DNA from: Candidatus Bathyarchaeia archaeon
GTDB lineage: Archaea; Thermoproteota; Bathyarchaeia; Bathyarchaeales; Bathycorpusculaceae
NCBI GenBank assembly: GCA_049512075.1
Contig: JBEKXL010000003.1
Coordinates: 143,688-207,687, forward strand
Direction of reading: 5' to 3'
Length of the DNA stretch: 64,000 nt
Part shown: one piece after another, positions 160 through 35,052 of the stretch
How positions within the stretch are numbered: the stretch's first letter is position 1
Layout: each line of letters starts with the position of its first letter
Translations under genes and position numbers: made by a program
Notes under the pieces: model-generated
Told to the model about the DNA's origin: nothing
Seen by the model: only the letters and a program-made list of their open reading frames with translations
Database searches by the model: none

Positions 160-1530
160 GTGCTGGAAACATTGGAAAGTGCCTTCAAACTAAGGACGCT
201 CAAACTATCGGCAGTCGCGATAACAAGCGTAGTTTTCGTTGAAGTGACCATCGGCCTAGTAGTGAACAGCCTTGCAATTGTAAGCGATGGTTTGCATGCA
301 TTGCTTGACGCTTTAACTACTCTTGTCCTTTTTTTGGCAGTGCGTGAGTCTGCAAAGCCTCCTGATGAAGAACACATGTACGGGCATGAGAAATTCGAAT
401 CGATAGGCGGTTTCGTAGGTGGGCTTGCGCTTGTAGTTGTAGCATTGCTTATCATATATGAGGCCGTCTTGAAGATATGGCGTGGACAAAGTATCAACTT
501 GGGGCTAGAGTATGTGGGCTTCATAGCTATTGGCTACACTTTCTGCATAGATTTTTTCAGAGTCGGAACACTCGTTAAGGCGCGCAAGAGTGAAAGTGCA
601 ACAATGAGAGTCGGGTTCTATCATGCTATTGCAGACTTGAGTTCAACGGTAATAGCGTTTCTGGGATTTGGATTGGCGACTTTAGGGTTCTATTACGGAG
701 ATTCCATTTCTTCGATGGCACTTGGGGTTTTGTTGACTTACCTTAGCGTGAAGCTTGTTTGGAGCAGTGGAATGGAGTTGACGGACACGATATCAAAAGA
801 GGTGGCGGACAAGGTCAGGCATGAAATAGTCGGAACACAAGGGGTGTGCAAGCTTGAAGCTTTAAAAATCAGAAAAGCAGGAGAAAAGACCTTCGTCAGA
901 GCAACTGTCCATGTGCCGGACTATCTGAATCTTGAAGAAGCTCACGAATTGACTTCCAAGATAGAGTCAAACATTAGGAGCGTGTTGGGAAACTGCGACG
1001 TTGCAATACACACTGAGCCTTGCAAGCCAGAAATCCCTACCGAAAAGCTCGTAGAGAAACTTACGCTAGGGGTTCAAGGTGTAGAACAAGTGCATGAAAT
1101 CAGCACTACGCACACGGGTGGAAAACTGTACATCACCTTGCACGCCAACGTGGATCCGAAAATCTCAGTTGAAACAGCCCATGAGATAGCTCAAGAGATC
1201 GAGAACAGAATTGAAGAAAGAATACCCGAAGTAGAAGATGTGACCGTACATATGGAACCTTTTAGTCCCAGGAGACGAAAGGGTTCGATGGTTAACGAGG
1301 AAGAAATCAGTCGTACAGTTCACAGCATAGCAGACAACTATCGGCAAGCCTTTCGAGTCAAAGGAATAGTAACTTATGTGGCCAGAAAGAAGCTGTACAT
1401 AAACATCGACTGCAGTTTCGCAAAGCAAATCTCGCTCAAAGATGCGCATGAAATGGCTTCAAAGGTTGAAGAGCAACTTAGAGAGCACTTCGCCGAAACT
1501 ATTGTCACTGTTCACATGGAACCAAGCTAG
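160..1530 (+). CDS. Cation diffusion facilitator (CDF) transporter with three C-terminal dimerisation domains
   Basis: SDGLHALLD, KPPDEEHMYGHEKFE and HAIAD CDF motifs; three repeats of AHE...V.V/IH.EP. GTG at 160 is the likelier start (ORF track opens at 19). Confidence 0.9.
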   Translation: MLETLESAFKLRTLKLSAVAITSVVFVEVTIGLVVNSLAIVSDGLHALLDALTTLVLFLAVRESAKPPDEEHMYGHEKFESIGGFVGGLALVVVALLIIYEAVLKIWRGQSINLGLEYVGFIAIGYTFCIDFFRVGTLVKARKSESATMRVGFYHAIADLSSTVIAFLGFGLATLGFYYGDSISSMALGVLLTYLSVKLVWSSGMELTDTISKEVADKVRHEIVGTQGVCKLEALKIRKAGEKTFVRATVHVPDYLNLEEAHELTSKIESNIRSVLGNCDVAIHTEPCKPEIPTEKLVEKLTLGVQGVEQVHEISTTHTGGKLYITLHANVDPKISVETAHEIAQEIENRIEERIPEVEDVTVHMEPFSPRRRKGSMVNEEEISRTVHSIADNYRQAFRVKGIVTYVARKKLYINIDCSFAKQISLKDAHEMASKVEEQLREHFAETIVTVHMEPS

Positions 1531-1587
1531 TCGCTCGTCCAGGTCATTGGGAAAGCCTATATTGGCAAGACTTACTTTTAGTTTGAA

Positions 1588-2292
1588 ATGAGTTCGTTGG
1601 CAATGGATAACGACAATGACTACATATTGAAAGTGTCGAATCTTAGTGTGAGGATTCAGAACCAGGCGATCTTGGATAATGTGAATTTCAAGGTCCAGAG
1701 GGGAACGACGTTGGCTGTTCTGGGACCTAACGGTGCGGGCAAAACAGTTTTGTTCAGGACATTGCTGAATCTGGTGCCATATGACGGGAAGGTCGAATGG
1801 AAAGGAAAAGTGAAGATAGGTTACGTGCCTCAAAACATTGCTGTTGGCGATATTCCCATTTCTGTGAAAGAGTTCTTGTCGTTCAGGGACGCGTCAGATG
1901 TTCCCAGTTGTCTTGATGCGGTCAGACTTGACGGAAAAGACGTGTCGGGCAAGAGGTTAGGTATACTGTCTGGCGGTCAGTTGCGGAGGGTGCTCATCGC
2001 GTGGGCTCTGATAGACAATCCCAACGTGTTGCTTTTCGATGAGCCAACGACTGGCGTTGATATCGGCGGTGAAGAGCCTATTCTCGTTATGCTCAACGAG
2101 CTGAAGAAGAGTAAGAATATGACGATACTCTTGATAACACATGATGTGCACATCGTCAACGAGTATTCAGACTATTTGTTAGCCCTGAACAAGTGTGTGA
2201 ATTTTTTCGGGGAATCGAAGGAAATAATGAATCCGACCGTTCAAAGAACGCTCTACGGCGAGACAGTGTGCGTTGGAGCGCCACAAAGATAG
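1588..2292 (+). CDS. Zn/Mn ABC transporter ATPase (ZnuC-like)
   Basis: GPNGAGKT, LSGGQ, FDEPTTGVD, ITHD, IGYVPQ. Confidence 0.9.
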   Translation: MSSLAMDNDNDYILKVSNLSVRIQNQAILDNVNFKVQRGTTLAVLGPNGAGKTVLFRTLLNLVPYDGKVEWKGKVKIGYVPQNIAVGDIPISVKEFLSFRDASDVPSCLDAVRLDGKDVSGKRLGILSGGQLRRVLIAWALIDNPNVLLFDEPTTGVDIGGEEPILVMLNELKKSKNMTILLITHDVHIVNEYSDYLLALNKCVNFFGESKEIMNPTVQRTLYGETVCVGAPQR

Positions 2293-2295
2293 AAG

Positions 2296-3084
2296 GTGTT
2301 GTTTGCGTTAGAGACGTTGATTCTTAGCTTATCGATAGGGGTTGCAGTGGGTGTTTCAGGCGGCTATCTGGGCTCTCTCATGGTATTGAAAAAAATGGCG
2401 CTTGTTGGCGACGCATTTTCGCATGTAGCGTTGCCTGGGCTTGCGCTGGGGCTTCTGTTCCATTTCCCCGTTTTCCTCGGGGCATTCGCTGTCCTCTTTG
2501 TCTCCGCCGTCGTCGTTTGGCAGTTGGGAAGGGTTACTAAGTTATCTTACGAATCTATAGTTGGAGCAACGTTCACGCTGGCGTTGGCAATAGGAATATT
2601 GATGGTGGTAAACGGTCAGCTTGATCTACTGGAGGCTCTCTTTGGCGACATAACAAACGTGACTCTGTTTGACGCAACAACAGCGGTAGCAATTTCCATT
2701 GTGGCTATTCTTCTCACGAAGATGATTTACAAGAAACTCGTCTTGGGAATGATTTCGGAAGAACTGGCAATCTCAAAAGGCATTAGCGTCTCTAAGACAG
2801 ATCTTTTGTATCTTCTGCTGGTCTCCCTCGTAGTGGCAACGGGCATAAAAATTGTTGGAAGCCTATTAGTCGGTTTCTTGGTCGCGGTTCCTGCAGCATC
2901 CGCGAAAAACATAAGTTCTAACCTACTCAAATACTCAGTCATGAGTTCAGCATTTGGGGCCATCAGTGCGTCCTCGGGGGTCTTGCTGTCAAACTATCTG
3001 AACCTGCAATCAGGCCCCATGGTGGTTATTTCTGGAATCACGATTTTCGCGGTAACAGTAGCGCTTAGATGGAAGGCAAAGTAG
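2296..3084 (+). CDS. Zn/Mn ABC transporter permease (ZnuB/ABC-3)
   Basis: ALVGDAFSHVALPG ABC-3 signature, LFGDI, multiple TM helices. Confidence 0.92.
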   Translation: MLFALETLILSLSIGVAVGVSGGYLGSLMVLKKMALVGDAFSHVALPGLALGLLFHFPVFLGAFAVLFVSAVVVWQLGRVTKLSYESIVGATFTLALAIGILMVVNGQLDLLEALFGDITNVTLFDATTAVAISIVAILLTKMIYKKLVLGMISEELAISKGISVSKTDLLYLLLVSLVVATGIKIVGSLLVGFLVAVPAASAKNISSNLLKYSVMSSAFGAISASSGVLLSNYLNLQSGPMVVISGITIFAVTVALRWKAK

Positions 3085-3181
3085 GCGCGCGTGAAGCTTG
3101 TGTCATGAAACCACGTCAGAGAATAATCAAAATACGAGTTCAAAGCGAGTTCCTCTAACGCGCGCGACACTGACCTAGAAC

Positions 3182-4612
3182 CTATGTGATGCTGCGGATG
3201 TTTTCCAGGACACTGCCTAGACGGGAGACGTTCTTTATCGCGGTTCTGACGCGGTAGGGACTTTTAATCAGTCTAGCCATTTGCTTTGAAACAAAAGTTG
3301 GCCGTCGGGCAAAGTGGTAGAAGCCATCATGAATCATCCACCTTATTTCGCTGTAAGGCACTGCGGTGGGATATATCTCCGAAACTGCGATTCCTGTCTC
3401 CCAGTATTCGCCTCCTTTCAGAAGCCCCTTGGCTTCGCATTCGTCCCAGATATCAGTTCCAGGATAAACCCCCAGAATATTGAACTGCGGTACATCTATC
3501 GGAATTCTGTTTGCAAACTCTATCGTGTTTCGGATTTCTTCTCTGGTCTCATTAGGCGCCCCGACGATGAAAGATCCGACTATTATGTCAGCTCCCGCTT
3601 TTCTCGCTGTTCTTACAGCAGTTCTAGATTGTTCAGGCGTTATCCGTTTGTTGTAGTAGTCCAGAATTCTTTGATTGGCGCTTTCGATGCCGAAATAGAG
3701 GACCTTGCAGCCTGCTTTGGCAGTTTCCCAGAACATTTCATAAGAGCCATTGTCGACTCTTCCTTCGCATATCCACTCCATGTCCAGCTTTTCCCTTCTC
3801 ATCTCTCTACAAAGCCTGATGACGTTCTTCGGGTTACCCGTGAAATTGTCATCCACAAAGATGAACTGCTTGTACCCCTCCGAAGCAAGAAAACGCAGTT
3901 CTTCCATAGTATTCTCGACGGATCTGGGTCTCCACCTGTTGTGAGCAAACTGTGTGCAACAACAGAATCGACATCTGTAGACGCAGCCGCGCGAAGAAAC
4001 AACGCTGGTGAACTTTCTCGGAGCTATGTTGGCTCCTGCCATTACTGAGTGGTAGTCTTCGCCGACCAGTGAACGATCTGGAAAAGGAAGGCCGTCCAAA
4101 TCCTTTATCAAAGGACTGTCAGCCGTGGAGGCCACTCCGCCCTCGTTCCTGAAGCTGATTCCGAGAACATCCTTCAACCTTCCCTTGTTCTTGAGACAAT
4201 CCACCAGGTCGACGACTGTTCGTTCTCCTTCTCCACGCACGATGATGTCGACTAAAGGATACTTTCTCAGAACCCTTTCGGGATTGAATGTGGCGTAGTA
4301 GTTTCCGAAAACCACGGTAAGGTTCGGATTTTCCTTTTTGACCTCAGCGCTTATCATCGCGGCGGTACGGCCGGAGGTTGCGAACGTTGAAAAACCAAGA
4401 ATGTCAGGGTTCTCGGCCTTCACCCATTTCGCCGTCTCTTTCACTGTGAGGCCTTTCGCTGCCTGATCGAGCACGGAGACCTCAACACCGTTTTGCTCCA
4501 GCACTGCAGCCAGATACAGGATTCCAAGAGGAGGCCAGGCGCCAAGGGATTTTTTCCTCTCGCGATCATCCAGATCTACGTTCGGACCAGCATTGACGAA
4601 AGAGAACTTCAT
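3182..4612 (-). CDS. B12-binding radical SAM protein
   Basis: PPLGILYLAA, GEGE, SRGCVYRCRFC (CxxxCxxC), FVDDNF, FGIES. Confidence 0.92.
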   Translation of the reverse strand: MKFSFVNAGPNVDLDDRERKKSLGAWPPLGILYLAAVLEQNGVEVSVLDQAAKGLTVKETAKWVKAENPDILGFSTFATSGRTAAMISAEVKKENPNLTVVFGNYYATFNPERVLRKYPLVDIIVRGEGERTVVDLVDCLKNKGRLKDVLGISFRNEGGVASTADSPLIKDLDGLPFPDRSLVGEDYHSVMAGANIAPRKFTSVVSSRGCVYRCRFCCCTQFAHNRWRPRSVENTMEELRFLASEGYKQFIFVDDNFTGNPKNVIRLCREMRREKLDMEWICEGRVDNGSYEMFWETAKAGCKVLYFGIESANQRILDYYNKRITPEQSRTAVRTARKAGADIIVGSFIVGAPNETREEIRNTIEFANRIPIDVPQFNILGVYPGTDIWDECEAKGLLKGGEYWETGIAVSEIYPTAVPYSEIRWMIHDGFYHFARRPTFVSKQMARLIKSPYRVRTAIKNVSRLGSVLENIRSIT

Positions 4613-4694
4613 ACGTCCACCGTATTCCGCCTAAATCTTGGTTCAAGAGTATTTTCATTGATTTCATGTGCGAGCTTCTTCGCAACGGGCGCTC

Positions 4695-5552
4695 CTATCT
4701 CAGACTTTCCATGAGTGCCTGCATGCCGCTTGAAGCAAGAGTCAGCAACTCTAACGTTTTGTACGCGTCTGCCATGCTTTTGGCAGTGTACTCGACTCTT
4801 AAGCCGTCAATTCTCTTGATGCTGGTCAACAGTTCGGCAGCATCCGCAAATTGGCTTGCCAAGAAGTTTATCGCCATCCTCACGGGCTTCTTGGCGACCA
4901 ACAGTCCGGCTTTGTCCTTTTTCTGAGCGGCGACTGCCTTTCTGACAGCTCTTCGCAGCTCCTTTTCAATACTGAGCATGCTCGCACTTTTTGCTGAAAG
5001 CCGGCTCATAGAGGTTTTCAGCGCAACGGTCTCAGCCCATGGCGCGGTTTTCTTGACATCATCCTCCAAGAGCTGGGCTTCACCAGCGACCAAAGCCACG
5101 GGAACGCCTAGCTCTCCGGCAACGTACGCGTTGAGGAGGAATTCACTAGCGGCTATTCCGTTTACTTCCACGCGGTTTATGCTCGCACCGCTGTAAGTGT
5201 GGTCAAACGTTGACTTTGCAGTGCCGAATTTGGCGTGGTACCCAAGAAACATCGCTGTTTTGCAACCTTCTATCCCTGAGACCATGCTTAGCGGGCGAGG
5301 AAAACCTCTCACGATCTCGACATACTCGGGCAAGTCGTCGATTAGAAGGTTAACCATAGGCCCGTGACTATCTGCAATGATGACTTTGTCAAAACCGTTT
5401 TTGCTCAGCTCATCAGCCGCAATCAACGTGATTCTGGTGGCGATTCTCCTTGCCTCTTCATACAACGGGCCCTTCAGATTCAAGTGACCCGGGATGACGA
5501 TGTAAGGCATGCCTTCGAGATCAACGGAAATGAAAGCCTTCATAGAAGCCAC
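4695..5552 (-). CDS. M55 family D-aminopeptidase (DppA-like)
   Basis: ISVDLEG, ADSHG, FLGYHAK, FDHTY motifs. Confidence 0.92.
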   Translation of the reverse strand: MASMKAFISVDLEGMPYIVIPGHLNLKGPLYEEARRIATRITLIAADELSKNGFDKVIIADSHGPMVNLLIDDLPEYVEIVRGFPRPLSMVSGIEGCKTAMFLGYHAKFGTAKSTFDHTYSGASINRVEVNGIAASEFLLNAYVAGELGVPVALVAGEAQLLEDDVKKTAPWAETVALKTSMSRLSAKSASMLSIEKELRRAVRKAVAAQKKDKAGLLVAKKPVRMAINFLASQFADAAELLTSIKRIDGLRVEYTAKSMADAYKTLELLTLASSGMQALMESLR

Positions 5553-5726
5553 TCATTACAGTTGTATAAGAATGTGATTTAAGAATTACTGTTCTCCGAC
5601 AGCTCTTGCGATTGCGGACTTTCGAACACTCAGACGGCGGAAGCAGTTTGTCAAACCTGCAAAAAGATTCTTTTTTATATAAGCAGTGTGCGTAATAAAT
5701 TCGGAGTATGCTGTGAAGGGATTTCG

Positions 5727-6155
5727 ATGGCAGGAATGTTGTCAGTTAGAGAAGTGATGACGCGCGATGTTAAGGTCGTAAGAGAAGACACGAGCATGCA
5801 AGAAGTAATTGCAACCATGATGAAGTTTGACATAAGTAGCGTGGTTGTTGTCCAGAAGGAGAGGCCTATTGGACTGATAACTCATAAGGACATATTGACC
5901 AGAGTGCTTCAGCCAGAGCTCCTTCCCGCCACTTTGACCGCGAGAAACGTGATGTCGGCTAGCCTCGTCACCATAGGAGAAGAAGCCAGTCTGGAAGAGG
6001 CAGCAAGACTTATGGTCAGAAAGGGCTTCAAGAAGCTGCTAGTAGTGCAAGACGGCAAGCTCGTCGGAATTATCACAAGCATGGATATTGCCAGAGAAGA
6101 GCCTAAACTAACAAAGCTCTTTGAGGAATTGCTGAAATACTGCCCAAAACGCTGA
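5727..6155 (+). CDS. CBS domain pair protein
   Basis: Two CBS repeats (VREVMT...IGLIT..DI; VMS...LVGIITSMDI). Confidence 0.9.
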   Translation: MAGMLSVREVMTRDVKVVREDTSMQEVIATMMKFDISSVVVVQKERPIGLITHKDILTRVLQPELLPATLTARNVMSASLVTIGEEASLEEAARLMVRKGFKKLLVVQDGKLVGIITSMDIAREEPKLTKLFEELLKYCPKR

Positions 6156-6373
6156 CAACGAAATTCAAGGTTCGGCGACAAGCAATTAACAAGAATATCG
6201 ACAGTGCGCCCTGACGGCTCGTTAGGCCAACTGGACTTGATCATCCATCCACATGCCCATCTATTTCTATAGGCTCCTGTTGTAACATAGCATTAACTGA
6301 CATTATAACGAGGAGCGGGCCACCTTTGACGGGCGCGCGCTCAACTCCATGCCCTATGAAGTTGACGCAGGCT

Positions 6374-7822
6374 TCACTCAGTTGAAAGGCCATAATGTTC
6401 TTCGATCATGTGATGGTACTGATCTACTGGCATGCTGGAGGCAACCGCTCTTTGCACAACTTCGCTTAGGGAGGGGTGAATGTGCATTCCTTCGACTATT
6501 GGCTCTGCACTCTGGGTAGGCGTGTACATGAGGTTTATTATCTCCTGGATAAGGACAGAGGCGTATGGTCCGATGATGTGTGCACCCAGGATCTTCGTTG
6601 TAGTCGACTCCATTATGACCTTGACGAAAAAGTCTTTCACACCCATGGCCAATCCCTTGGCAGTGTCTTCGTAGCGTTGGATTCCAATCAGAACGTTGCT
6701 CTTGCCATACTTTTCTATCGCTTCTGTCTCTTTGAGTCCAACGCTGGCAATTTCCGGATAGGTGAAGACGGCGTTCGGCACCGCGTGATAGTCGACTTTG
6801 ATTCGTTTCTTCTGCACAGCATTGTAGTACACGAGCAATGCTTCGTAGTTCGCCACGTGCTTGAAGAGGTATTTGCCGTCGGCATCCCCAAAGGCCCAAA
6901 CGTTTGGCTGCGACGTTTCCAAATATTCATTGACAATTATCCATCCCTTTTCGTCTGTTCTTATTCCAGCCCTTTCCGGATGAAGTATGTCCGTGTTTGG
7001 TGCCCTTCCTGAAGCGATCAATATTTCTTCAGCGGCTACCTCTGCTTCTTTCCCACTCTCTCTGTTGACAGCAACTAGTTTTTTCCTTCCAGCTGAAGTG
7101 TTCTCGACGCTGCGAACCTCATGGTTGGTCATTATCGTGATGTGCTTCTGCAGCTCTCTCTTTGCCAGTGCCGACACTTCGGGCTCTTCTTCTGGAATGA
7201 ACTGCCGATTTCTGCCGATAACAGTGACTTTCGACCCCATGGCAGAAAAGAAATGGCCGTATTCTGCTGCGATGTATCCTCCGCCGATGATTGCTATACT
7301 CTGGGGGAGGCTGTCCATTTTGAGGATGGTGTCGCTTGTATGATATTTGATGTTTTCTAGGCCTTTTATTGCTGGGATTAGCGGTTTTGATCCAGTGCAC
7401 AAAAAAATCATTTCTGACTTTATGGTTTCCTTTCCAACCTTCATAGTGTATGGTGCGACGAATTCGGCCACGCTGTTGTAGTAATCCAAGTTTTTGGTGT
7501 GGGTGAGCCCTTGCTTCATCGCGTTTATGTCTACATGAATCAGTTTTCTCATTCTCTCCATAACTGCTCGGAAATCCACGTTTTTCATGTCCACGGATAT
7601 TCCAAACTCCTTGGCCCTTTCAATTGTCCTCACCATCTCGGCGGGGTACAGCAGGATTTTGGAGGGAATACAGCCTCGCGTCAGGCATATTCCGCCAGGC
7701 TCGTCCTTGTCTATCACCGCAACCTTAAGGTCAGGGGTTTCTTGTTCCATAGCATTCACGATTTCCAGGGCAGATCCCGAGCCTATGACGATGAGATCGT
7801 ATTCCTTCACTTCAATCACCAC
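6374..7822 (-). CDS. Dihydrolipoyl dehydrogenase / mycothione reductase-like flavoprotein
   Basis: IGSGS, GGICLTRGCIPSK redox disulfide, GGGYIAAE, HPSLSE. Confidence 0.9.
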   Translation of the reverse strand: MVIEVKEYDLIVIGSGSALEIVNAMEQETPDLKVAVIDKDEPGGICLTRGCIPSKILLYPAEMVRTIERAKEFGISVDMKNVDFRAVMERMRKLIHVDINAMKQGLTHTKNLDYYNSVAEFVAPYTMKVGKETIKSEMIFLCTGSKPLIPAIKGLENIKYHTSDTILKMDSLPQSIAIIGGGYIAAEYGHFFSAMGSKVTVIGRNRQFIPEEEPEVSALAKRELQKHITIMTNHEVRSVENTSAGRKKLVAVNRESGKEAEVAAEEILIASGRAPNTDILHPERAGIRTDEKGWIIVNEYLETSQPNVWAFGDADGKYLFKHVANYEALLVYYNAVQKKRIKVDYHAVPNAVFTYPEIASVGLKETEAIEKYGKSNVLIGIQRYEDTAKGLAMGVKDFFVKVIMESTTTKILGAHIIGPYASVLIQEIINLMYTPTQSAEPIVEGMHIHPSLSEVVQRAVASSMPVDQYHHMIEEHYGLSTE

Positions 7823-8060
7823 GAGCTTGTTTGGAGATTAGGAGTGAAAAATGTAATAAATGTGATTGTTGAACGCGCAACCCGCGCTTTCATTGCGTGC
7901 TCTTTACAACCGGGACCGGAACTGGCCCTGCACCACTGATTCTCAGTATTGATTTTGACTTCATAAGCGCTTTATCAAGAAAACCAGCATTAACGCACAG
8001 GCTCTCACGCTTCGATGTGAGAGCCCAATTTGTAACAGCAACAGTCAAGAGGACATTAAA

Positions 8061-8516
8061 GTGATTGTCAAAAACAGTTCAAAATACCCTTCCGACCAGG
8101 TTGAAAACCTCGTGAAATTCGCTCTGAAGAACGTTCCACATTCCGAAGAATTGGAAGTGCATGTGAAAAATAGCAAACACGCATTCTACGGACGAATCTT
8201 CGCAAGCGCAGAGGATTGTACATGCGACTGCAACGGCCAACGCTTCCTAATTGTAGTCAGGATAGGCAGGGCGAAACACTTCCCGTACCTTTCCGTCTAT
8301 CCGGACCACAAACGGTGCCAAAAGTACGCGGTAATGTTGAACGACTGGAAGGAAGCACTCGTGAAAGTCACGGCGCATGAAGGAATGCACCTGAGACAAT
8401 GGATAGAGAAGAAACCCATGTGGGAACACCAGGCAGAAAGGCACGCAATAATGATTCTGGGCAAGTACCGAGACACTGTCGTCGCTTGTGCGCCGCTACT
8501 GAGTCCCATTGACTAG
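8061..8516 (+). CDS. Hypothetical protein with HExxH motif (zincin-like)
   Basis: VTAHEGMHLRQ followed by WEHQAE; GAGG upstream of GTG. Confidence 0.6.
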   Translation: MIVKNSSKYPSDQVENLVKFALKNVPHSEELEVHVKNSKHAFYGRIFASAEDCTCDCNGQRFLIVVRIGRAKHFPYLSVYPDHKRCQKYAVMLNDWKEALVKVTAHEGMHLRQWIEKKPMWEHQAERHAIMILGKYRDTVVACAPLLSPID

Positions 8517-21569: not shown

Positions 21570-21711
21570 TGGTGGGGTCGCGCGGATTTGAACCGCGGAC
21601 CTACGGGTTTCTCCGTGACAGCTCCAGAACTTCGTCATTCCAGCGTTCTGGTCAGCAAACCCGTTTCTACATTCTGGAGCCCGTCGTCATACCTGCCTAG
21701 ACTACGACCCC
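21570..21711 (-). tRNA. tRNA-Trp(CCA) with 65-nt BHB intron at 37/38 (21609-21673)
   Basis: Acceptor GGGGTCG/CGACCCC plus ACCA; anticodon arm ACGGG-CTCCAG|A-CCCGT; T arm CGCGG-TTCAAAT-CCGCG; BHB CTCC/GGAG with AGA and AAA bulges. Confidence 0.97.
21609..21673 (-). ncRNA. Intron-encoded box C/D guide RNA of tRNA-Trp
   Basis: Guide AACGGGTTT followed by G and D' box CTGA (N+5 gives C39); C' ATGACGA; second guide TTCTGGAG complementary to the anticodon loop. Confidence 0.85.
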
Positions 21712-21844: not shown

Positions 21845-21972
21845 TGGGGTTTGCCGGTCATAGGGCGTGGGTCCCACCTGATCCCATACCGAACTCAGAA
21901 GTTAAACCACGTTCCGTTTCCGGTTGTAGTGTGGTCTTCGGCCATGTGAACCCGGGAAAGCTGGTAGCCCCA
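21845..21972 (+). rRNA. rrf: 5S rRNA (stand-alone)
   Basis: CCTGATCCCATACCGAACTCAGAAGTTAA 5S signature; helix I TGGGGTTTGCCGG / CTGGTAGCCCCA; TATA-like CTTATGA ~25 nt upstream. Confidence 0.95.
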
Positions 21973-31063: not shown

Positions 31064-31651
31064 TCAGAGTTCGTGCCTCATGACAGGTCGAGTCTCTGAG
31101 CGGCGAATGACCTCCAAGAACCCAGCCTTACGAAATGCCGAAGCGAGACCAGTATAGACGAATGGATCAGGAGGTCTCCAATCTTTCTTAGGTTCAACCG
31201 GGTATCCTTCAACAATCTTGCCCTCTTGCCCTCTCACGTAGTCCACAGCCGCACCCAAGAGTCTCACACTCACTCCCTTGCCTCTGAATGCCTTGGCAAC
31301 AAAGAAGCACACAACTGACCACACAGGCTTATCATCAACCCGACTCAATATTCTCGATCGCTCCAGCCTTGGAAAAGCCTCTCGCGGTGCAACTGAACAC
31401 CACCCAATCGGCCGGCCTTCTGAGTACGCGAGAATCCCAGGAACCTTGCCGGAATCCACTAGGCCTTTCAAAGCCTTCCTGTTCATTTCACCTCGCTGCC
31501 GCACAAAATCTGAGCGGGCTAACCTCCAGGACATGCACCAACAACCTCCGCATGCGCCACGCTGACCGAACAACTTCTCAACATCAGCCCACTTCTCACG
31601 CGTCAACGGATGAAACTCTAGAACCGAAACATCCCTTTCCTTATTGGGCAC
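31064..31651 (-). CDS. GNAT family acetyltransferase
   Basis: CGGCWC, GWCSVAPR, FRGKGVS, VEGYP. Confidence 0.88.
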   Translation of the reverse strand: MPNKERDVSVLEFHPLTREKWADVEKLFGQRGACGGCWCMSWRLARSDFVRQRGEMNRKALKGLVDSGKVPGILAYSEGRPIGWCSVAPREAFPRLERSRILSRVDDKPVWSVVCFFVAKAFRGKGVSVRLLGAAVDYVRGQEGKIVEGYPVEPKKDWRPPDPFVYTGLASAFRKAGFLEVIRRSETRPVMRHEL

Positions 31652-31728
31652 TCAGATCCCCAATTGTCTCGTTAGATGCGTAGGCATATGAGATCATTGA
31701 AACGCACGTTCATTTATGATTTTTGCAA

Positions 31729-32040
31729 GGACCCTTGACTTAACCTGCTTGGACAAGTGGAGTGGGAGACAGTAACCCTTAACTTTTCAGCCGCTCCTTT
31801 CTTTTCTGGCGATGACAGGAAATTGAGCCCTTCATAATCCCGCCGGCAAATCCACGCAGACGGACTCAACGGAAGAGGGCAAGCTTCACGCTTGCCGGTT
31901 CTTGTGATGGCGAGTTTACCCAAGCATGGGACACGGCGGGCGCGGGCCTAAAACCCTACGACGGAGAGAGCTTAACCTAGAGGGGCGCACCGCCCTACAG
32001 TGAAGTTAAGTGTTAGGTTACGTAGGAAACAAGAGGGCCC
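31729..32040 (-). ncRNA. Putative ~310-nt structured non-coding RNA of unknown family
   Basis: Paired termini GGGCCC..TTG / CAAGGGTCC and nested helices; G-U pairs work only on the minus strand; no SRP helix 8 or RNase P CR motifs. Confidence 0.6.
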
Positions 32041-32108
32041 GCGAAAACAACTCTTAAGTTCGTCATGTGCATACAGATAGGTAAAACCTGAAGCAGGCAG
32101 AGCAGAAT

Positions 32109-33197
32109 TTGGACTTAGAAACAAAAATCGAGCTTGTGTGCAGACCGCCGACGGAAGAAGTCATAACCCCGGAAGACTTGCGGAAGCTTCTGGAGACTGA
32201 GCAGCATCCCATAGCCTACAACGGCTGGGAACCATCCGGTCTAGTTCACCTTGGAACCGGGCTGGTTTGCGCGTACAAGATGAAGGACTTCATAGAAGCT
32301 GGAATACACTACAAGGCTTATCTTTCCACGTGGCACGCTTGGCTAAACAACAAGATGGGCGGCGACATGAAACTCATAAGAAAAGCCGCAGACCTCTTCA
32401 AACACTCATGGATAGCCCTGGGCGTTCCAGAAGACAAGATCGAATTCATCTACTCAGACGAACTCTACGACGACCTGAAATACTGGGAAAAAACGGTCAT
32501 GGTGGCAAAAAACCTCTCAATAGCCAGAGTAACCCGCACACTTGAGGTCGCGGGAAGACAAGAATCTGAAGCCAAGCACGTTTCAGACTACCTGTACACG
32601 CCCATGCAGGTAGCCGACATATTCCACATGGAAGTAAAAATCTGCCAACTCGGCATAGACCAACGCAAAGCCAACGTCGTAGCCCGAGAACTGGGCGAAA
32701 AGCTCGGATGCTGGAAACCCGTGTGCGTCCACCACAGCTACCTACAAGGCCTCGCGAAACCGCCCATCTGGCCTATTCCAAAAGAGAAAGAAAGAGAAAT
32801 ACTCTCATCAATAAAAATGTCAAAAAGCAAGCCCGAAACCTGCATATTCATCTACGACCCGCCTGAAGAAATCAAACAGAAAATCTCACAAGCCTTCTGC
32901 CCCGAAAAAACCGTGGAGTACAACCCAATCCTGGAAATATGCAAATTCATAATCTTCAGAGAAAACAAAACCTTCACCATACAGAGACCGCCCAAATTCG
33001 GCGGGTCAATCACCTTCAACAACCTCAAAGGACTCCAGAAAACCTACGCAGACGGAAAACTGCACCCGCAGGATCTTAAGAACGCTGTGGCAGAAGAACT
33101 CGCAAGAATCCTTGAACCCGTCAGAAGATACTTCGAAGACAACAAAGAAGCAAGAGAATGCCTCAACGCGGTAAAAAACGCCAAAGTAACAAGGTAA
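32109..33197 (+). CDS. tyrS: Tyrosyl-tRNA synthetase (archaeal type)
   Basis: YNGWEPSGLVHLG, YTPMQVADI, GIDQRK, KMSKS, LHPQDLK. Confidence 0.95.
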   Translation: MDLETKIELVCRPPTEEVITPEDLRKLLETEQHPIAYNGWEPSGLVHLGTGLVCAYKMKDFIEAGIHYKAYLSTWHAWLNNKMGGDMKLIRKAADLFKHSWIALGVPEDKIEFIYSDELYDDLKYWEKTVMVAKNLSIARVTRTLEVAGRQESEAKHVSDYLYTPMQVADIFHMEVKICQLGIDQRKANVVARELGEKLGCWKPVCVHHSYLQGLAKPPIWPIPKEKEREILSSIKMSKSKPETCIFIYDPPEEIKQKISQAFCPEKTVEYNPILEICKFIIFRENKTFTIQRPPKFGGSITFNNLKGLQKTYADGKLHPQDLKNAVAEELARILEPVRRYFEDNKEARECLNAVKNAKVTR

Positions 33198-33202
33198 AAA
33201 CC

Positions 33203-33616
33203 TTGTCAGCACATCTCAGGGAAAGACAAGAAAAAATCCAGCAAACACTAGAATGCCTAGCAGAAGAATCAGCCAGAGGAACACCGATAATCGTTGAAGG
33301 CAAAAAAGACTTGGAAACCCTGAGAACTCTGGGCGTGCAGGGGCAGATAGTGACCGCAAAAACCGGCGGAAAATCCCGTTTAGACCTCATCTCAGAAATA
33401 GAGAAAATCGGCAACCGAGAAGTCATTCTGCTCTTGGATTTTGACAGACGAGGAAAAGAATGGACAGCAATCTTGAGACAGAACCTGGAAAAAGCAAGGA
33501 TAAAAGCCAACGTTACATTCCGGAAAGAACTCCTGAGGTTCGCGGGCAAGGAACTCAAGGACATCGAAGGCTTGGCAGCCTACTTGCAAACGTTGAGCAA
33601 AAAACTCGGCGCATGA
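33203..33616 (+). CDS. Stand-alone TOPRIM domain protein (RNase M5-like)
   Basis: IIVEGKKD and LLLDFDRRG. Confidence 0.85.
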   Translation: MSAHLRERQEKIQQTLECLAEESARGTPIIVEGKKDLETLRTLGVQGQIVTAKTGGKSRLDLISEIEKIGNREVILLLDFDRRGKEWTAILRQNLEKARIKANVTFRKELLRFAGKELKDIEGLAAYLQTLSKKLGA

Positions 33617-33891: not shown

Positions 33892-35052
33892 ACGGGTTCA
33901 TCCCAAACATTTACCATAAAGTATGTCATACACGCGAAATTCGAAATAGAAGGAGTAGTTGAAAAACCGGACGTGATAGGAGCAGTTTTCGGGCAGACAG
34001 AAGGCCTTTTCGGACCCGAGCTTGACCTGCGGGAACTGCAAAAATCCGGCAGAATTGGAAGAATAGAAATCGAGTTACACTCAAAAAACGACAAGACCAC
34101 AGGCACGATAACGATTCCAACAAGCTTGGATCGGGTTTCCACAGCATTGATTGCTGCGAGCATAGAAAGCATAAACAGGGTAGGCCCATGCGCTTCAAAG
34201 GTGACTCTTGAAAAGGTCGAAGACGTCAGAGAAGCCCGAAGAAAGATAATCATTGACAGAGCCAAAGACATCCTTCACAAATGGACAATCGAATTAATGC
34301 CTTCAGTGGACGAAGTGTTCAAAGAAGTTTCCGAAACACTCAAAATAGGAAAAGTTGGAAAATACGGCTCAGAAGAACTACCCGCGGGACCTGAACTTGA
34401 AACCGCAAAAGAAATAATCCTCGTTGAAGGAAGAGCAGACATCATAAACCTCATGCGTTGCGGCCTGATGAACACCGTGGCTCTGGAAGGCGCAAAGGTT
34501 CCAGAAGCGATAAAAACGCTCTGCAAGGAAAAGGAAGCAACGGCCCTCCTTGACGGAGACAGAGGCGGAGACCTAATCTTCAAAGAACTCTTACAGGTGA
34601 CCGACGTAAAGTACATCGCCAGAGCACCGAGAGGAAAAGAAGTCGAGGAACTGAACTGCAAGGAAATATTCGAAGCTCTCGACGCCAAAATTGCTATTCA
34701 AGATGCAACGAAGCCGGAAGCGCCCAAGCCGGTGAAACGGGAAAAGCTGAAAGTAGAAGTTCCAAAGGAAATCGTTGAAACAATAAAATTATTGGAAGGA
34801 ACTTTGGAAGCCGTGCTATTGAACGAAAAATCAGAACAGATGGAACGGCTGCCGGTCAGCCAGCTTGCCGAAAAGCTCCAACATGCCGAAGGCGTGGACA
34901 CAATAGTCTTCGACGGCATAATAACACAGCGAATCGTCGATGTGGCAAGCGAGAAAAACATAAAAAGAATCATAGCTTCACGAGTGTCAGACGCCGTTAA
35001 ACCTTCATTAACCGTGCAGCTCATAACTTTTGGAGAGGTCGCCGAGGGCTAA
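33892..35052 (+). CDS. dnaG: Archaeal DnaG (exosome-associated primase-like), probable ACG start
   Basis: KYVIHAKFEIEGVVEKPDVIGAVFGQTEGL, VEGRAD, DGDRGG, VFDGIITQR; conserved N-terminus lies upstream of the first canonical start (33973). Confidence 0.93.
   Translation, partial: TGSSQTFTIKYVIHAKFEIEGVVEKPDVIGAVFGQTEGLFGPELDLRELQKSGRIGRIEIELHSKNDKTTGTITIPTSLDRVSTALIAASIESINRVGPCASKVTLEKVEDVREARRKIIIDRAKDILHKWTIELMPSVDEVFKEVSETLKIGKVGKYGSEELPAGPELETAKEIILVEGRADIINLMRCGLMNTVALEGAKVPEAIKTLCKEKEATALLDGDRGGDLIFKELLQVTDVKYIARAPRGKEVEELNCKEIFEALDAKIAIQDATKPEAPKPVKREKLKVEVPKEIVETIKLLEGTLEAVLLNEKSEQMERLPVSQLAEKLQHAEGVDTIVFDGIITQRIVDVASEKNIKRIIASRVSDAVKPSLTVQLITFGEVAEG

What the first reader, a model, noticed from the sequence alone, without database searches (positions are those of the whole stretch)
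31729..32040. Unassigned ~310-nt structured RNA in the aaRS gene cluster
Seen on the minus strand: termini GGGCCC(UC)UUG/CAAGGGUCC; GUAACC+CUUAACUU/AAGUUAAG+GGUUAC; GCUCU/GGAGC; UAGGG..GGCCC/GGGCU..UCCUG; CCCGCCG/CGGCGGG closing three hairpins (CCCA/UGGG, GGCAAGC/GCUUGCC, AGUCCG/UGGAUU); 3' hairpin ACUUGU/GCAGGU. Several helices need G-U pairs that become A-C on the plus strand, which argues for selection on RNA. Alternative pairings exist (GGCGGUG/CAUCGCC, UAACCUA/UAGGUUA), suggesting a pseudoknot or switch. It has SRP size but no helix 8 (CAGG..GNRA..AGCA), and RNase P RNA is at 53.6 kb. Inference: an undescribed housekeeping-type ncRNA or large leader. I found no clear TATA box at the expected distance.
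Basis: partly seen in the sequence, partly recalled or inferred. Interest (0 to 1): 0.8.

Follow-up and report, generated by a model that had tools for sequence, protein, structure and literature searches.

The report
Two-hairpin H/ACA guide RNA gene
A real, conserved small RNA gene lies here, but on the strand opposite to the one proposed; it is most likely a known kind of guide RNA that directs pseudouridine formation at two functional centres of the large ribosomal RNA, and it appears to be trimmed and closed into a ring.

Summary
The RNA lies on the + strand at about 31808-32046, after a BRE/TATA-like box and between pheT/GNAT and tyrS. It matches no Rfam family. The true SRP RNA is on another contig.

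Across 26 homologues, 46 pairs in 7 helices are 94.9% paired. Twenty pairs show two-sided changes, and 0 of 500 shuffles reach this. G.U versus A.C is 111:21 on +.

The anatomy is two archaeal box H/ACA hairpins:
- lower stem, internal-loop pocket and upper stem;
- a K-turn, canonical in hairpin 1 and atypical in hairpin 2;
- ACA after each lower stem in 26 of 26.

The invariant pocket strands match one place each in 16S+23S: the peptidyl-transferase loop (UGGGU/UUAGA/CCGUC) and helix 69 (UAAC/UCUGA/CUCUCUC). Haloferax sR-h45 has the same two targets in the same 5'-to-3' order (PMC7075261). Cbf5, Nop10, Gar1 and L7Ae are encoded.

Contigs from RNA libraries join 32044 back to 31839, a 206-nt circle. 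This is a known kind of RNA with an unusual architecture.

The parts
31770..31787 (+). BRE/TATA-like promoter box (CAGTAAC c CTTAACTTTT). It is followed by an unconserved spacer of about 20 nt before the conserved block starts.
   Evidence: Conserved as CAGYAA-nnnn-TTTAAYTT in alignment A2 and in the upstream strings. Coordinates. That it works as a promoter is inferred from the archaeal TATA-to-start spacing (my knowledge), not shown.
31808..31838 (+). 5' leader, absent from the circular form. GGC|GAU|GA..loop..GA|GCC (31808-29) reads as a small K-turn-type hairpin. Conserved AAU (31836-8) lies just before the cut.
   Evidence: GGCGAUGA ... GAGC is present in about 19 of the 25 leaders printed; the most distant ones have a plain hairpin instead. 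Contigs X2 (31816-32034) and X4 record 6 (from 31817) include part of it. The K-turn reading is by motif only.
31839..31940 (+). Hairpin 1 (HP1). Closing helix H1 31839-45/31934-40. Lower stem P1 31851-56/31925-30. Pocket strands 31857-63 (..GACGG) and 31918-24 (ACCCAAG). Upper stem 31862-67/31912-17. K-turn, CnGA at 31870-73 and GUGAuG at 31904-09. Variable apical stem 31874-31902. ACA 31931-33.
   Evidence: Covariation in H1, H2 and H3. ACA in 26 of 26, UGA in 26 of 26 and nGA in 24 of 26 sequences; 13 nt between upper stem and ACA in 26 of 26. Coordinates.
31941..32043 (+). Hairpin 2 (HP2). Closing helix H4 31941-48/32036-43. Lower stem 31955-60/32021-26. Pocket strands 31961-70 (..GAGAGAG) and 32011-20 (UGUUAGGUUA). 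Upper stem 31971-76/32005-10. K-turn-like loop (AG at 31980-81, UGA at 32001-03). Apical hairpin 31982-96. ACA 32029-31.
   Evidence: Covariation in H4-H7. ACA in 26 of 26 and UGA in 26 of 26. Coordinates, except the upper-stem 5' strand, which I placed by hand after the pocket strand.
31839..32044 (+). 206-nt circular form. A32044 is joined to C31839. In the circle, H1 and H4 stack into one 15-bp helix with one bulged A, and a guide hairpin sits on each end.
   Evidence: Joint '32044 -> 31839, goes back 206' in contigs of runs X3 and X4, from two studies. X3 record 3 is 236 nt, which equals 206 + 30, as a closed cycle of 31-letter words would print. The k-1 reading is my inference.
32045..32060 (+). 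3' trailer. AA, then AACTCTTAAGTT (32049-60; AACTTTTAAGT in most relatives). It is either the T-rich end of the primary transcript, the TATA box of tyrS, or both.
   Evidence: trailers. Contig X1 reaches 32060. The function is inferred.
32109..33197 (+). Context: tyrS, the next gene downstream on the same strand.
   Evidence: Pfam tRNA-synt_1b, 1e-36. It lies downstream on the RNA's strand in 21 of 28 loci.

Best explanation
The element is a gene on the + strand for a two-hairpin box H/ACA guide sRNA.

Transcription and processing. Transcription starts near 31808, about 21 nt after a BRE/TATA-like box, and ends near 32046-32060. A 31-nt leader and the trailer are removed. The ends C31839 and A32044, held side by side by the stacked helices H1 and H4, are ligated into a 206-nt circle. 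A linear form also exists.

Hairpin anatomy. Each hairpin has the archaeal H/ACA layout: a 6-bp lower stem followed by ACA, a two-stranded pocket, an upper stem, a K-turn or K-turn-like loop for L7Ae, and an apical stem.

Proposed function. With Cbf5, Nop10, Gar1 and L7Ae, hairpin 1 would pair its pocket (ACCCA + GACGG) with 23S UGGGU/CCGUC in the peptidyl-transferase loop and present U2585/U2586 (E. coli numbers). Hairpin 2 would pair GUUA or GGUUA plus GAGAGAG with helix 69 UAAC(U)/CUCUCUC and present U1915 and U1917 in an unpaired UCUG. It would then be the Bathyarchaeia counterpart of Haloferax volcanii sR-h45.

Shown: conservation, covarying helices, motifs, unique complementarity, presence of the protein genes, the back-joint in RNA-library contigs.
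Inferred: strand, start site, L7Ae/Cbf5 binding, pseudouridylation, and that the circle is the working form.
For: Conservation and structure:
- The gap is found in 32 of 41 relatives.
- The covariance model finds it in 131 of 151 genomes of the class and in 39 of the 131 genomes of other classes in the phylum sample.
- On 26 sequences, 46 pairs in 7 helices are 94.9% paired, and 20 pairs change on both sides. 0 of 500 shuffles reach this; slid controls give 2-7 such pairs.

Strand:
- G.U versus A.C is 111:21 on +.
- RNAalifold gives -54.67 (covariation -4.08) on + against -50.51 (-2.66) on -.
- A conserved BRE/TATA-like box precedes a fixed, unconserved spacer.
- The + strand RNA folds with z -2.28.

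H/ACA features:
- ACA directly after the lower stem of hairpin 1 in 26 of 26, and 2 nt after that of hairpin 2 in 26 of 26.
- Hairpin 1 K-turn: UGA in 26 of 26 and nGA in 24 of 26, with a 3-nt bulge and a variable C-stem.
- 13 nt from upper stem to ACA in 26 of 26. This puts U2585/U2586 at n+14/n+15, inside the 15+/-1 rule quoted in PMC7075261.
- With the two weak G.U pairs counted as pocket, the distal G:A lies 10 positions from the base of the upper stem; the rule is 9-10.

Targets:
- In all 5 of 5 relatives with complete rRNAs, UGGGU(0-9)CCGUC and UAAC(0-9)CUCUCUC each occur once in 16S+23S, at the peptidyl-transferase loop and at helix 69.
- Shuffled arms match anywhere in 5.2% and 1.4% of 5000 trials.
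- The genome's own partial 23S carries the helix 69 site.
- PMC7075261 (abstract, sections 3, 6, 7, 8): the sR-h45 5' stem-loop makes Psi2605 in a UUUA context, and the 3' stem-loop makes Psi1940 and Psi1942 from an unpaired UVUN in helix 69. That is the same two sites in the same order, and UCUG here fits UVUN.

Proteins in G000: Cbf5 (TruB_N + TruB_C_2 + PUA), Nop10, Gar1 and two L7Ae-family genes.

RNA data: contigs of 4 RNA-library runs from 4 studies lie on 31816-32060, and two of them carry the back-joint 32044->31839. A circular H/ACA RNA (sR109) has been reported in Sulfolobus solfataricus (PMC3326292, passages).
Against: - With the textbook geometry (only UN unpaired), neither pocket has a target above shuffled guides. 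This holds in 16S/23S of 5 genomes and in 42 RNAs of G000 (38 tRNAs, 5S, RNase P, SRP, partial 23S).
- The matches I rely on leave 5 target bases unpaired. They were found after sliding the arm limits over 25 combinations per hairpin, and alone they are only modestly unlikely (0.05 and 0.014).
- The hairpin 2 K-turn is not canonical. The position that should be the conserved A next to the apical stem is A in only 17 of 26, and the polarity that fits the invariant bases is the reverse of hairpin 1.
- The ACA of hairpin 2 sits 2 nt off the stem. In one register the spacing to U1915 is 17-18, not 15+/-1.
- 9 of 26 sequences (UGAUAGG) lose one pair of the GUUA register.
- Both ACA boxes lie in internal loops closed by H1 and H4, which I have not seen described for H/ACA RNAs and which might hinder the Cbf5 PUA domain.
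- The strand is not shown by any RNA data, because contigs carry no strand. RNA libraries can hold DNA, and no DNA run or silent control stretch was laid.
- No pseudouridine mapping exists.
- The 23S of G000 stops before the peptidyl-transferase site.
- E. coli numbers are from my memory.
Confidence: 0.76

Rival explanations
1. It is an H/ACA-like L7Ae RNP RNA on the + strand, but not a guide for these two rRNA sites. It would be an orphan guide for another RNA, or an rRNA-folding or assembly chaperone that only base-pairs with helix 69 and the peptidyl-transferase loop.
For: No target fits the canonical two-base-unpaired geometry. Five target bases are left unpaired at both proposed sites. 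The ACA boxes are enclosed by extra helices, and the second K-turn is atypical.
Against: [quoted passage not shown] The pocket strands are invariant across 26 sequences. The spacing to ACA fits n+14/15 for hairpin 1. PMC7075261 cites work showing that pockets can hold more than two unpaired bases.
Confidence: 0.13
2. It is a cis-acting 5' leader of tyrS on the + strand (T-box-like, or an operator for an aminoacyl-tRNA synthetase) that controls tyrS expression.
For: The RNA lies directly upstream of tyrS on the same strand in 21 of 28 loci, and directly downstream of pheT in 16 of 28. T-box leaders also carry a K-turn (my knowledge).
Against: In 7 of 28 loci no tyrS was found within about 1.5 kb downstream (some of these loci are cut by contig ends). 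In G021 about 6 kb of inserted DNA separates most of the RNA from tyrS. A Tyr codon UAC in GGUUACG is not conserved. A TATA-like box lies between the RNA and tyrS. Contigs close the RNA on itself at 32044. Matches in other classes are short single hairpins.
Confidence: 0.04
3. One reading: an undescribed housekeeping RNA of about 310 nt on the minus strand.
For: The helices are the same on both strands, and some pairs favour the minus strand: A1 columns 158/234 have UG in 4 sequences, and 74/85 have GU in 3. The RNA-library contigs carry no strand.
Against: G.U versus A.C would be 21:111 on the minus strand. No promoter box lies at the right distance upstream on that strand; the nearest box sits only about 8 nt before the first covarying helix. 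The K-turn, the ACA boxes and the complementarity to rRNA exist only on +.
Confidence: 0.03
4. It is not an RNA gene at all, but a conserved DNA site such as an attachment site for integrative elements or a shared regulatory region of pheT, GNAT and tyrS.
For: Integrase-bearing insertions sit inside it in G013 and G021, with partial duplications.
Against: Compensatory changes in 20 of 46 pairs need selection on a folded strand. Contigs of RNA libraries hold it with a back-joint. Integrases typically use stable-RNA genes as targets (my knowledge), so the insertions fit an RNA gene.
Confidence: 0.02

Closest known systems
[quoted passage not shown]
   Same: Both have two H/ACA stem-loops in one RNA of about 200 nt. 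The 5' one is aimed at the UUUA stretch between helices 90 and 93 of 23S (Psi2605). The 3' one is aimed at two alternate U's of the helix 69 loop, left unpaired as UVUN (Psi1940/1942). Both have K-turns with sheared G:A pairs and ACA boxes, and both have atypical spacing on the second stem-loop.
   Different: No sequence relationship was tested, because I did not hold the sR-h45 sequence. Rfam gives no match. sR-h45 has a 56-nt linker with an H box, whereas here the two hairpins abut. Here each ACA is enclosed by an extra GC-rich helix, U2585 faces a U instead of pairing with an A, about 5 target bases are unpaired, a leader K-turn hairpin is present, and a circular form is seen.
Circular form of the single-hairpin H/ACA RNA sR109 of Sulfolobus solfataricus (PMC3326292; passages found by search)
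   Same: An archaeal H/ACA guide RNA was detected as a covalently closed circle.
   Different: sR109 is one hairpin with a circle of about 70 nt, supported by few reads. Here there are two hairpins in a 206-nt circle, and the ligated ends complete a 15-bp helix.
Circular box C/D sRNAs of Thermococcales and their ATP-dependent RNA ligase (PMC9014305, abstract from the search listing and a term search; Starostina 2004 seen only in reference lists)
   Same: A guide sRNA whose 5' and 3' ends are brought together by a terminal helix and then ligated.
   Different: It is a different guide class (2'-O-methylation). In G000 the RNA_ligase family PF09414 gives only sub-threshold matches in frames of 583 and 608 aa, so the ligase is not identified.
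   Same: Similar size, and an abundant structured archaeal RNA.
   Different: No match even at E<=10. The genome's SRP RNA is on contig C20.

Membership tests
Archaeal box H/ACA guide sRNA | A hairpin with a lower stem, a two-sided internal loop (pocket) and an upper stem | tested here: met
   Both hairpins. The helices H2/H3 and H5/H6 covary: 94.9% of cells are paired, and 0 of 500 shuffles reach the observed covariation.
Archaeal box H/ACA guide sRNA | ACA (ANA) box just 3' of the lower stem | tested here: met
   ACA in 26 of 26 after the lower stem of hairpin 1. ACA in 26 of 26 for hairpin 2, two nt after the stem. Unusually, both lie in internal loops closed by H1 and H4.
Archaeal box H/ACA guide sRNA | K-turn or K-loop with tandem sheared G:A in the upper stem, 9-10 positions above the pocket (rule quoted in PMC7075261) | tested here: inconclusive
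   Hairpin 1 is canonical by motif (UGA 26 of 26, nGA 24 of 26, 3-nt bulge). The distance is 10 if the two G.U pairs are counted as pocket, and 12 if not. Hairpin 2 has invariant AG and UGA, but the expected A next to the apical stem is A in only 17 of 26, and the polarity is unclear. No binding test was possible.
Archaeal box H/ACA guide sRNA | Target U lies 15+/-1 nt from ACA | tested here: inconclusive
   Hairpin 1: 13 nt from the last paired pocket base to ACA, so U2585 is at n+14 and U2586 at n+15 (26 of 26). Hairpin 2: 13 nt including a 2-nt spacer in the GGUUA register, so U1917 is at n+15; but 17-18 to U1915 in the GUUA register.
Archaeal box H/ACA guide sRNA | Bipartite complementarity of the two pocket strands to a target, leaving U-N unpaired | tested here: inconclusive
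   The strict form is not met. The relaxed form gives unique matches of 5+5 and 4+7 bp at the peptidyl-transferase loop and helix 69 in 5 of 5 genomes, with 5 unpaired bases. Chance is 0.052 and 0.014. The sites equal those of sR-h45.
Archaeal box H/ACA guide sRNA | Partner proteins Cbf5, Nop10, Gar1 and L7Ae are encoded | tested here: met
   Cbf5 has TruB_N, TruB_C_2 and PUA domains.
Archaeal box H/ACA guide sRNA | Guide-dependent pseudouridine at the predicted site | not testable with these tools
   This needs pseudouridine mapping or reconstitution.
Archaea_SRP (RF01857) | Match to the covariance model | tested here: not met
   No match at E<=10 on 31500-32300. The genome's SRP RNA is at C20:30495-30808.
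T-box-type tRNA-sensing leader of tyrS | A conserved specifier codon, and continuity with the regulated gene | tested here: not met
   UAC in GGUUACG varies (GGUCAAG, GUUGCG, GGUGCCG ...). In 7 of 28 loci no tyrS was found within about 1.5 kb downstream. There is a back-joint at 32044.

The most novel reading that the evidence does not exclude
The working form is an obligately circular, rod-like 'dumbbell' H/ACA RNA. Ligation of the processed ends completes a 15-bp central helix (H1+H4, with one bulged A). That helix carries one Cbf5-Nop10-Gar1-L7Ae guide module on each end, so both ACA boxes sit in internal loops. A disposable 5' leader with its own K-turn would recruit L7Ae to seed assembly or processing. 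This architecture would be shared across Bathyarchaeia. The gene would also serve as a chromosomal attachment site for integrase-bearing elements, as tRNA genes do.
Probability: 0.4. Interest if true: 0.6.

Novelty: new variant of a known kind. Interest (0 to 1): 0.42.

Why it matters
The report gives an uncultured, globally common archaeal class a named function for one of its most conserved unannotated RNAs. It also predicts which 23S uridines are modified: the helix 69 loop and the peptidyl-transferase loop.

Two features go beyond a routine annotation.
- Each ACA box is enclosed by an extra helix, and contigs from RNA libraries show the RNA closed into a 206-nt ring whose ligation completes a central helix. 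If the ring is the active guide, it changes how the Cbf5 PUA domain must meet the ACA box. It would also be a compact natural scaffold holding two guide modules.
- The covariance model built here would let annotation pipelines find the family. Rfam 15 has no model that detects it.

If the ring is only a by-product, this is an ordinary new member of the H/ACA family.

Tried and rejected
- Rfam at gathering level over the whole window, and at E<=10 on 31500-32300: nothing at the locus.
- Canonical H/ACA target scans with only UN unpaired. I scanned 16S/23S of five relatives with 0 or 1 mismatch per arm, and 42 RNAs of G000 (38 tRNAs with flanks and introns, 5S, RNase P, SRP, partial 23S). The best scores lie inside the shuffled-guide range.
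- A guide for tRNA-Tyr U35, suggested by the tyrS neighbour: no tRNA-Tyr site is among the best hits.
- A T-box-like tyrS leader: rejected (see the rivals).
- A bulge-helix-bulge motif as the route to the circle: by eye only. The first four bases of the circle (CCCG) have no complement just after the 3' cut (AAAC), and I saw no conserved leader-trailer pairing in 25 loci. No program was run for this.
- The ligase: PF09414 gives only sub-threshold matches. RtcB was not searched.
- Read laying: the stretches 31600-31809 and 32062-32200 have no contig cover in the four runs. I draw no conclusion on abundance or habitat from depths or run labels.
- Literature: searches for Bathyarchae* together with 'H ACA' found one paper, unrelated by its title (listing only). 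One search listed nothing relevant. PMC12918454 (passages found by search) treats circular rRNA in Bathyarchaeia and has 0 occurrences of 'sRNA' or 'small RNA'. PMC9014305 has no H/ACA passage. I therefore found no description of this RNA in the searchable library.
- Not done: structure prediction, complex prediction, protein homology searches.
Full report
**What is at the locus.** On one side is a GNAT acetyltransferase gene (31064-31651, minus strand). On the other is tyrS (32109-33197, +). pheS and pheT lie further upstream on +. Rfam finds RNase P RNA, 5S rRNA and one tRNA in the window and nothing in the gap. A permissive search of 31500-32300 gives only a chance-level ROSE_3 hit inside tyrS. 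The genome's SRP RNA is on another contig.

**Conservation.**
- blastn of the gap matches 32 of 41 related genomes (G000 counted) from 12 families of the order. Identity is 67-97% and is confined to window about 31769-32059.
- A covariance model built from 26 homologues matches 131 of 151 genomes sampled from the class (85 of 95 high-quality ones).
- In the phylum sample, the model matches 39 of the 131 genomes from other classes. There the two halves often appear as separate hairpins of 75-100 nt next to each other.
- An exact consensus pattern occurs in 105 stretches of the species-representative genome set. Of the 80 listed, 79 are titled Candidatus Bathyarchaeota, Bathyarchaeia, Bathyarchaeales or Bathyarchaeum, and one is titled Thermoproteota.

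**Structure and strand.** On alignment A3, seven helices (46 pairs) are 94.9% paired. Twenty pairs change on both sides (73 cells). 0 of 500 column shuffles reach these values, and slid controls give 2-7 such pairs. The helices are the same on either strand, so the strand has to be settled otherwise. Four arguments favour +:
1. Non-Watson-Crick cells are 111 G.U against 21 A.C on +. Fifty of these G.U cells come from two nearly invariant pairs.
2. RNAalifold scores + better, at -54.67 against -50.51, with a larger covariation term.
3. A conserved CAGYAA-n4-TTTAAYTT box (31770-31787) is followed by about 20 unconserved bases and then the sharp start of conservation at GGCGAUGA (31808). This is the layout of an archaeal BRE/TATA promoter (the spacing rule is from my knowledge). 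On the minus strand the only A/T box lies about 8 nt before the first covarying helix, and it fits better as the terminator of the RNA or the promoter of tyrS.
4. The motifs described next exist only on +.

With the new bounds, the + strand RNA folds with z -2.28 (3 of 200 shuffles as good). The minimum-energy fold recovers H1 and H4-H7. No RNA data show the strand directly.

**Anatomy** (coordinates).
- After a 31-nt leader come two long hairpins that abut.
- Hairpin 1 is made of closing helix H1 (CCCGCCG/CGGCGGG), a 6-bp lower stem, a pocket (..GACGG / ACCCAAG) and a 6-bp upper stem. Above these are a K-turn (C-n-G-A on the 5' strand; 3-nt bulge and G-A-n-G on the 3' strand) and a variable apical stem.
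- ACA follows the lower stem directly.
- Hairpin 2 repeats the plan: closing helix H4, lower stem CCYACG/CGURGG, pocket ..GAGAGAG / UGWUAGGUUA, upper stem CUUAAC/GUUAAG, an AG/UGA internal loop and an apical hairpin. ACA lies two bases after the lower stem.
- ACA is present in 26 of 26 sequences for both hairpins. For the hairpin 1 K-turn, UGA is present in 26 of 26 and nGA in 24 of 26.
- This is the archaeal box H/ACA motif as summarised in PMC7075261: P1, pocket, P2 with a K-turn, ACA, n+15 spacing, and 9-10 positions from the pocket to the distal G:A.
- Hairpin 1 meets the spacing rules: 13 nt from upper stem to ACA, and 10 positions to the distal G:A if the two G.U pairs at the pocket edge are open.
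- The K-turn of hairpin 2 is atypical. The base that should be the conserved A is A in 17 of 26.

**Targets.** With the textbook geometry I found no target above shuffled guides in rRNAs, tRNAs, 5S, RNase P or SRP RNA. When the arm limits were allowed to slide, one site per hairpin recurred at the homologous place in all five relatives with complete rRNAs.
- For hairpin 1 the site is 23S ..C-UGGGU-UUAGA-CCGUC.., which pairs with the invariant ACCCA and GACGG.
- For hairpin 2 the site is the helix 69 sequence UAAC-UCUGA-CUCUCUC, which pairs with GUUA and the invariant GAGAGAG. A second register, GGUUA with UAACU, is also possible.
- Each bipartite string occurs exactly once in 16S+23S of each genome. 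Shuffled arms match anywhere in 5.2% and 1.4% of 5000 trials.
- The partial 23S of G000 carries the helix 69 site; its contig ends before the other site.
- The same 23S sequences occur in other classes of the phylum.

These are the sites of the one well-studied double-hairpin archaeal guide. In Haloferax volcanii sR-h45, the 5' stem-loop makes Psi2605 in a UUUA stretch between helices 90 and 93. The 3' stem-loop makes Psi1940 and Psi1942 from an unpaired UVUN in helix 69, under atypical spacing that needs the ACA box (PMC7075261). Here the order is the same, and the unpaired UCUG fits UVUN. The E. coli numbers I give (U2585/2586, U1915/1917) are from memory, anchored on the paper's m3U2603 and U1936 landmarks.

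**Partner proteins.** G000 encodes Cbf5 (TruB_N, TruB_C_2, PUA), Nop10, Gar1 and two L7Ae-family proteins.

**RNA-library data.** One search found 18 runs that hold part of the stretch, and I laid four of them, all kept as contigs.
- Their contigs lie on 31816-32060.
- Two runs from two studies carry a joint from 32044 back to 31839.
- In X3 the contig is 236 nt, which is 206 plus 30. That is what a closed cycle of 31-letter words gives.
- The joint links the A just after H4 to the first C of H1. In the circle, H1 and H4 become one 15-bp helix with a bulged A, and the two guide hairpins sit at its ends.
- Other contigs include part of the leader (from 31816/31817), and one reaches 32060, so longer linear forms exist too.
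- Caveats: contigs have no strand, RNA libraries can contain DNA, and I could not lay a DNA run. A tandem DNA copy or a template switch by reverse transcriptase is therefore not excluded. The exact fit of the joint to the helix ends speaks for ligation of a processed RNA.
- A circular H/ACA RNA (sR109) and circular C/D sRNAs are on record in other archaea.
- I saw no bulge-helix-bulge motif at the cuts (by eye), and I could not name the ligase.

**Leader.** Its first 22 nt read GGC|GAU|GA-loop-GA|GCC, a K-turn-type hairpin. It is present in about 19 of 25 leaders and replaced by a plain hairpin in the most distant ones. Its role is unknown. Seeding of L7Ae binding or of processing is a guess.

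**Gene context.** pheT, the RNA and tyrS lie on one strand. tyrS follows the RNA in 21 of 28 loci, and pheT precedes it in 16 of 28 (the loci span only about 1.5 kb on each side, and some are cut by contig ends). I read this as conserved synteny rather than regulation, for three reasons:
- in 7 of 28 loci no tyrS was found within that span;
- a TATA-like box lies between the RNA and tyrS;
- the RNA is processed out.

**Verdict.** It is not a new class of RNA. It is a box H/ACA pseudouridylation guide, functionally matching sR-h45, with an unusual build: closing helices around both ACA boxes, no linker, a leader K-turn and a circular form. Confidence in the H/ACA guide reading is about 0.76. 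Confidence that the circle is the working form is about 0.4.

Noticed in passing
L032 (G021:C2) 2150-8385 and L033 (G013:C84) 244-5317; corresponds to window 31908-31923: In two relatives from different genera the RNA gene is interrupted at the same place, the 3' side of the K-turn, upper stem and pocket of hairpin 1. The inserted DNA is about 5-6 kb. It starts with a tyrosine integrase gene (Pfam Phage_integrase, 1e-19 and 1e-14) on the RNA's strand. Next comes a diverged second copy of the RNA's 3' two-thirds (69-73% identity). The original 3' part is displaced to the far end. The gene seems to serve as an integration site, as tRNA genes do. The exact att core, and whether a working guide remains, were not worked out.
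   Followed up: partly
window 21570-21711 (-): A tRNA-Trp(CCA) gene has a 65-69-nt intron (Rfam tRNA and ARAGORN). The intron holds AAUGUAGA, CUGA and AAUGACGA, which look like degenerate box C, D' and C' motifs. It may be the intron-encoded C/D guide known from tRNA-Trp of other archaea (my knowledge). A lone 5S rRNA gene lies 140 nt away at 21850-21969 (+).
   Followed up: no
window 31808-31829 (+): The discarded 5' leader of the RNA folds by motif into its own K-turn-type hairpin (GGC|GAU|GA..GA|GCC). It is conserved in about 19 of 25 relatives. That makes a third putative L7Ae site, on a part that is not in the circle.
   Followed up: partly
window 32011-32020 (+) and the same element in relatives: The 3' pocket strand of hairpin 2 carries the helix 69-complementary element twice (GUUA-G-GUUA; GUUAGUUA in some genomes). 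This allows two pairing registers, which might serve to present U1915 and U1917 in turn.
   Followed up: no
G000 contig C32:17518-20076; whole genome: The genome's 23S rRNA gene is cut by the contig end at model position about 2536 of 2987. No 16S rRNA gene was found in this 99.8%-complete assembly. 16S and 23S lie on different contigs or far apart in several relatives.
   Followed up: no
window 33158-33616 and 33973-35052 (+): Two separate ORFs with Toprim domains (152 and 359 aa) lie just downstream of tyrS.
   Followed up: no
G000 contig C1:295944-298381: ARAGORN calls a tRNA-Leu(TAG) with a 2338-nt 'intron'. This is either an artefact or a tRNA gene interrupted by a large insertion.
   Followed up: no
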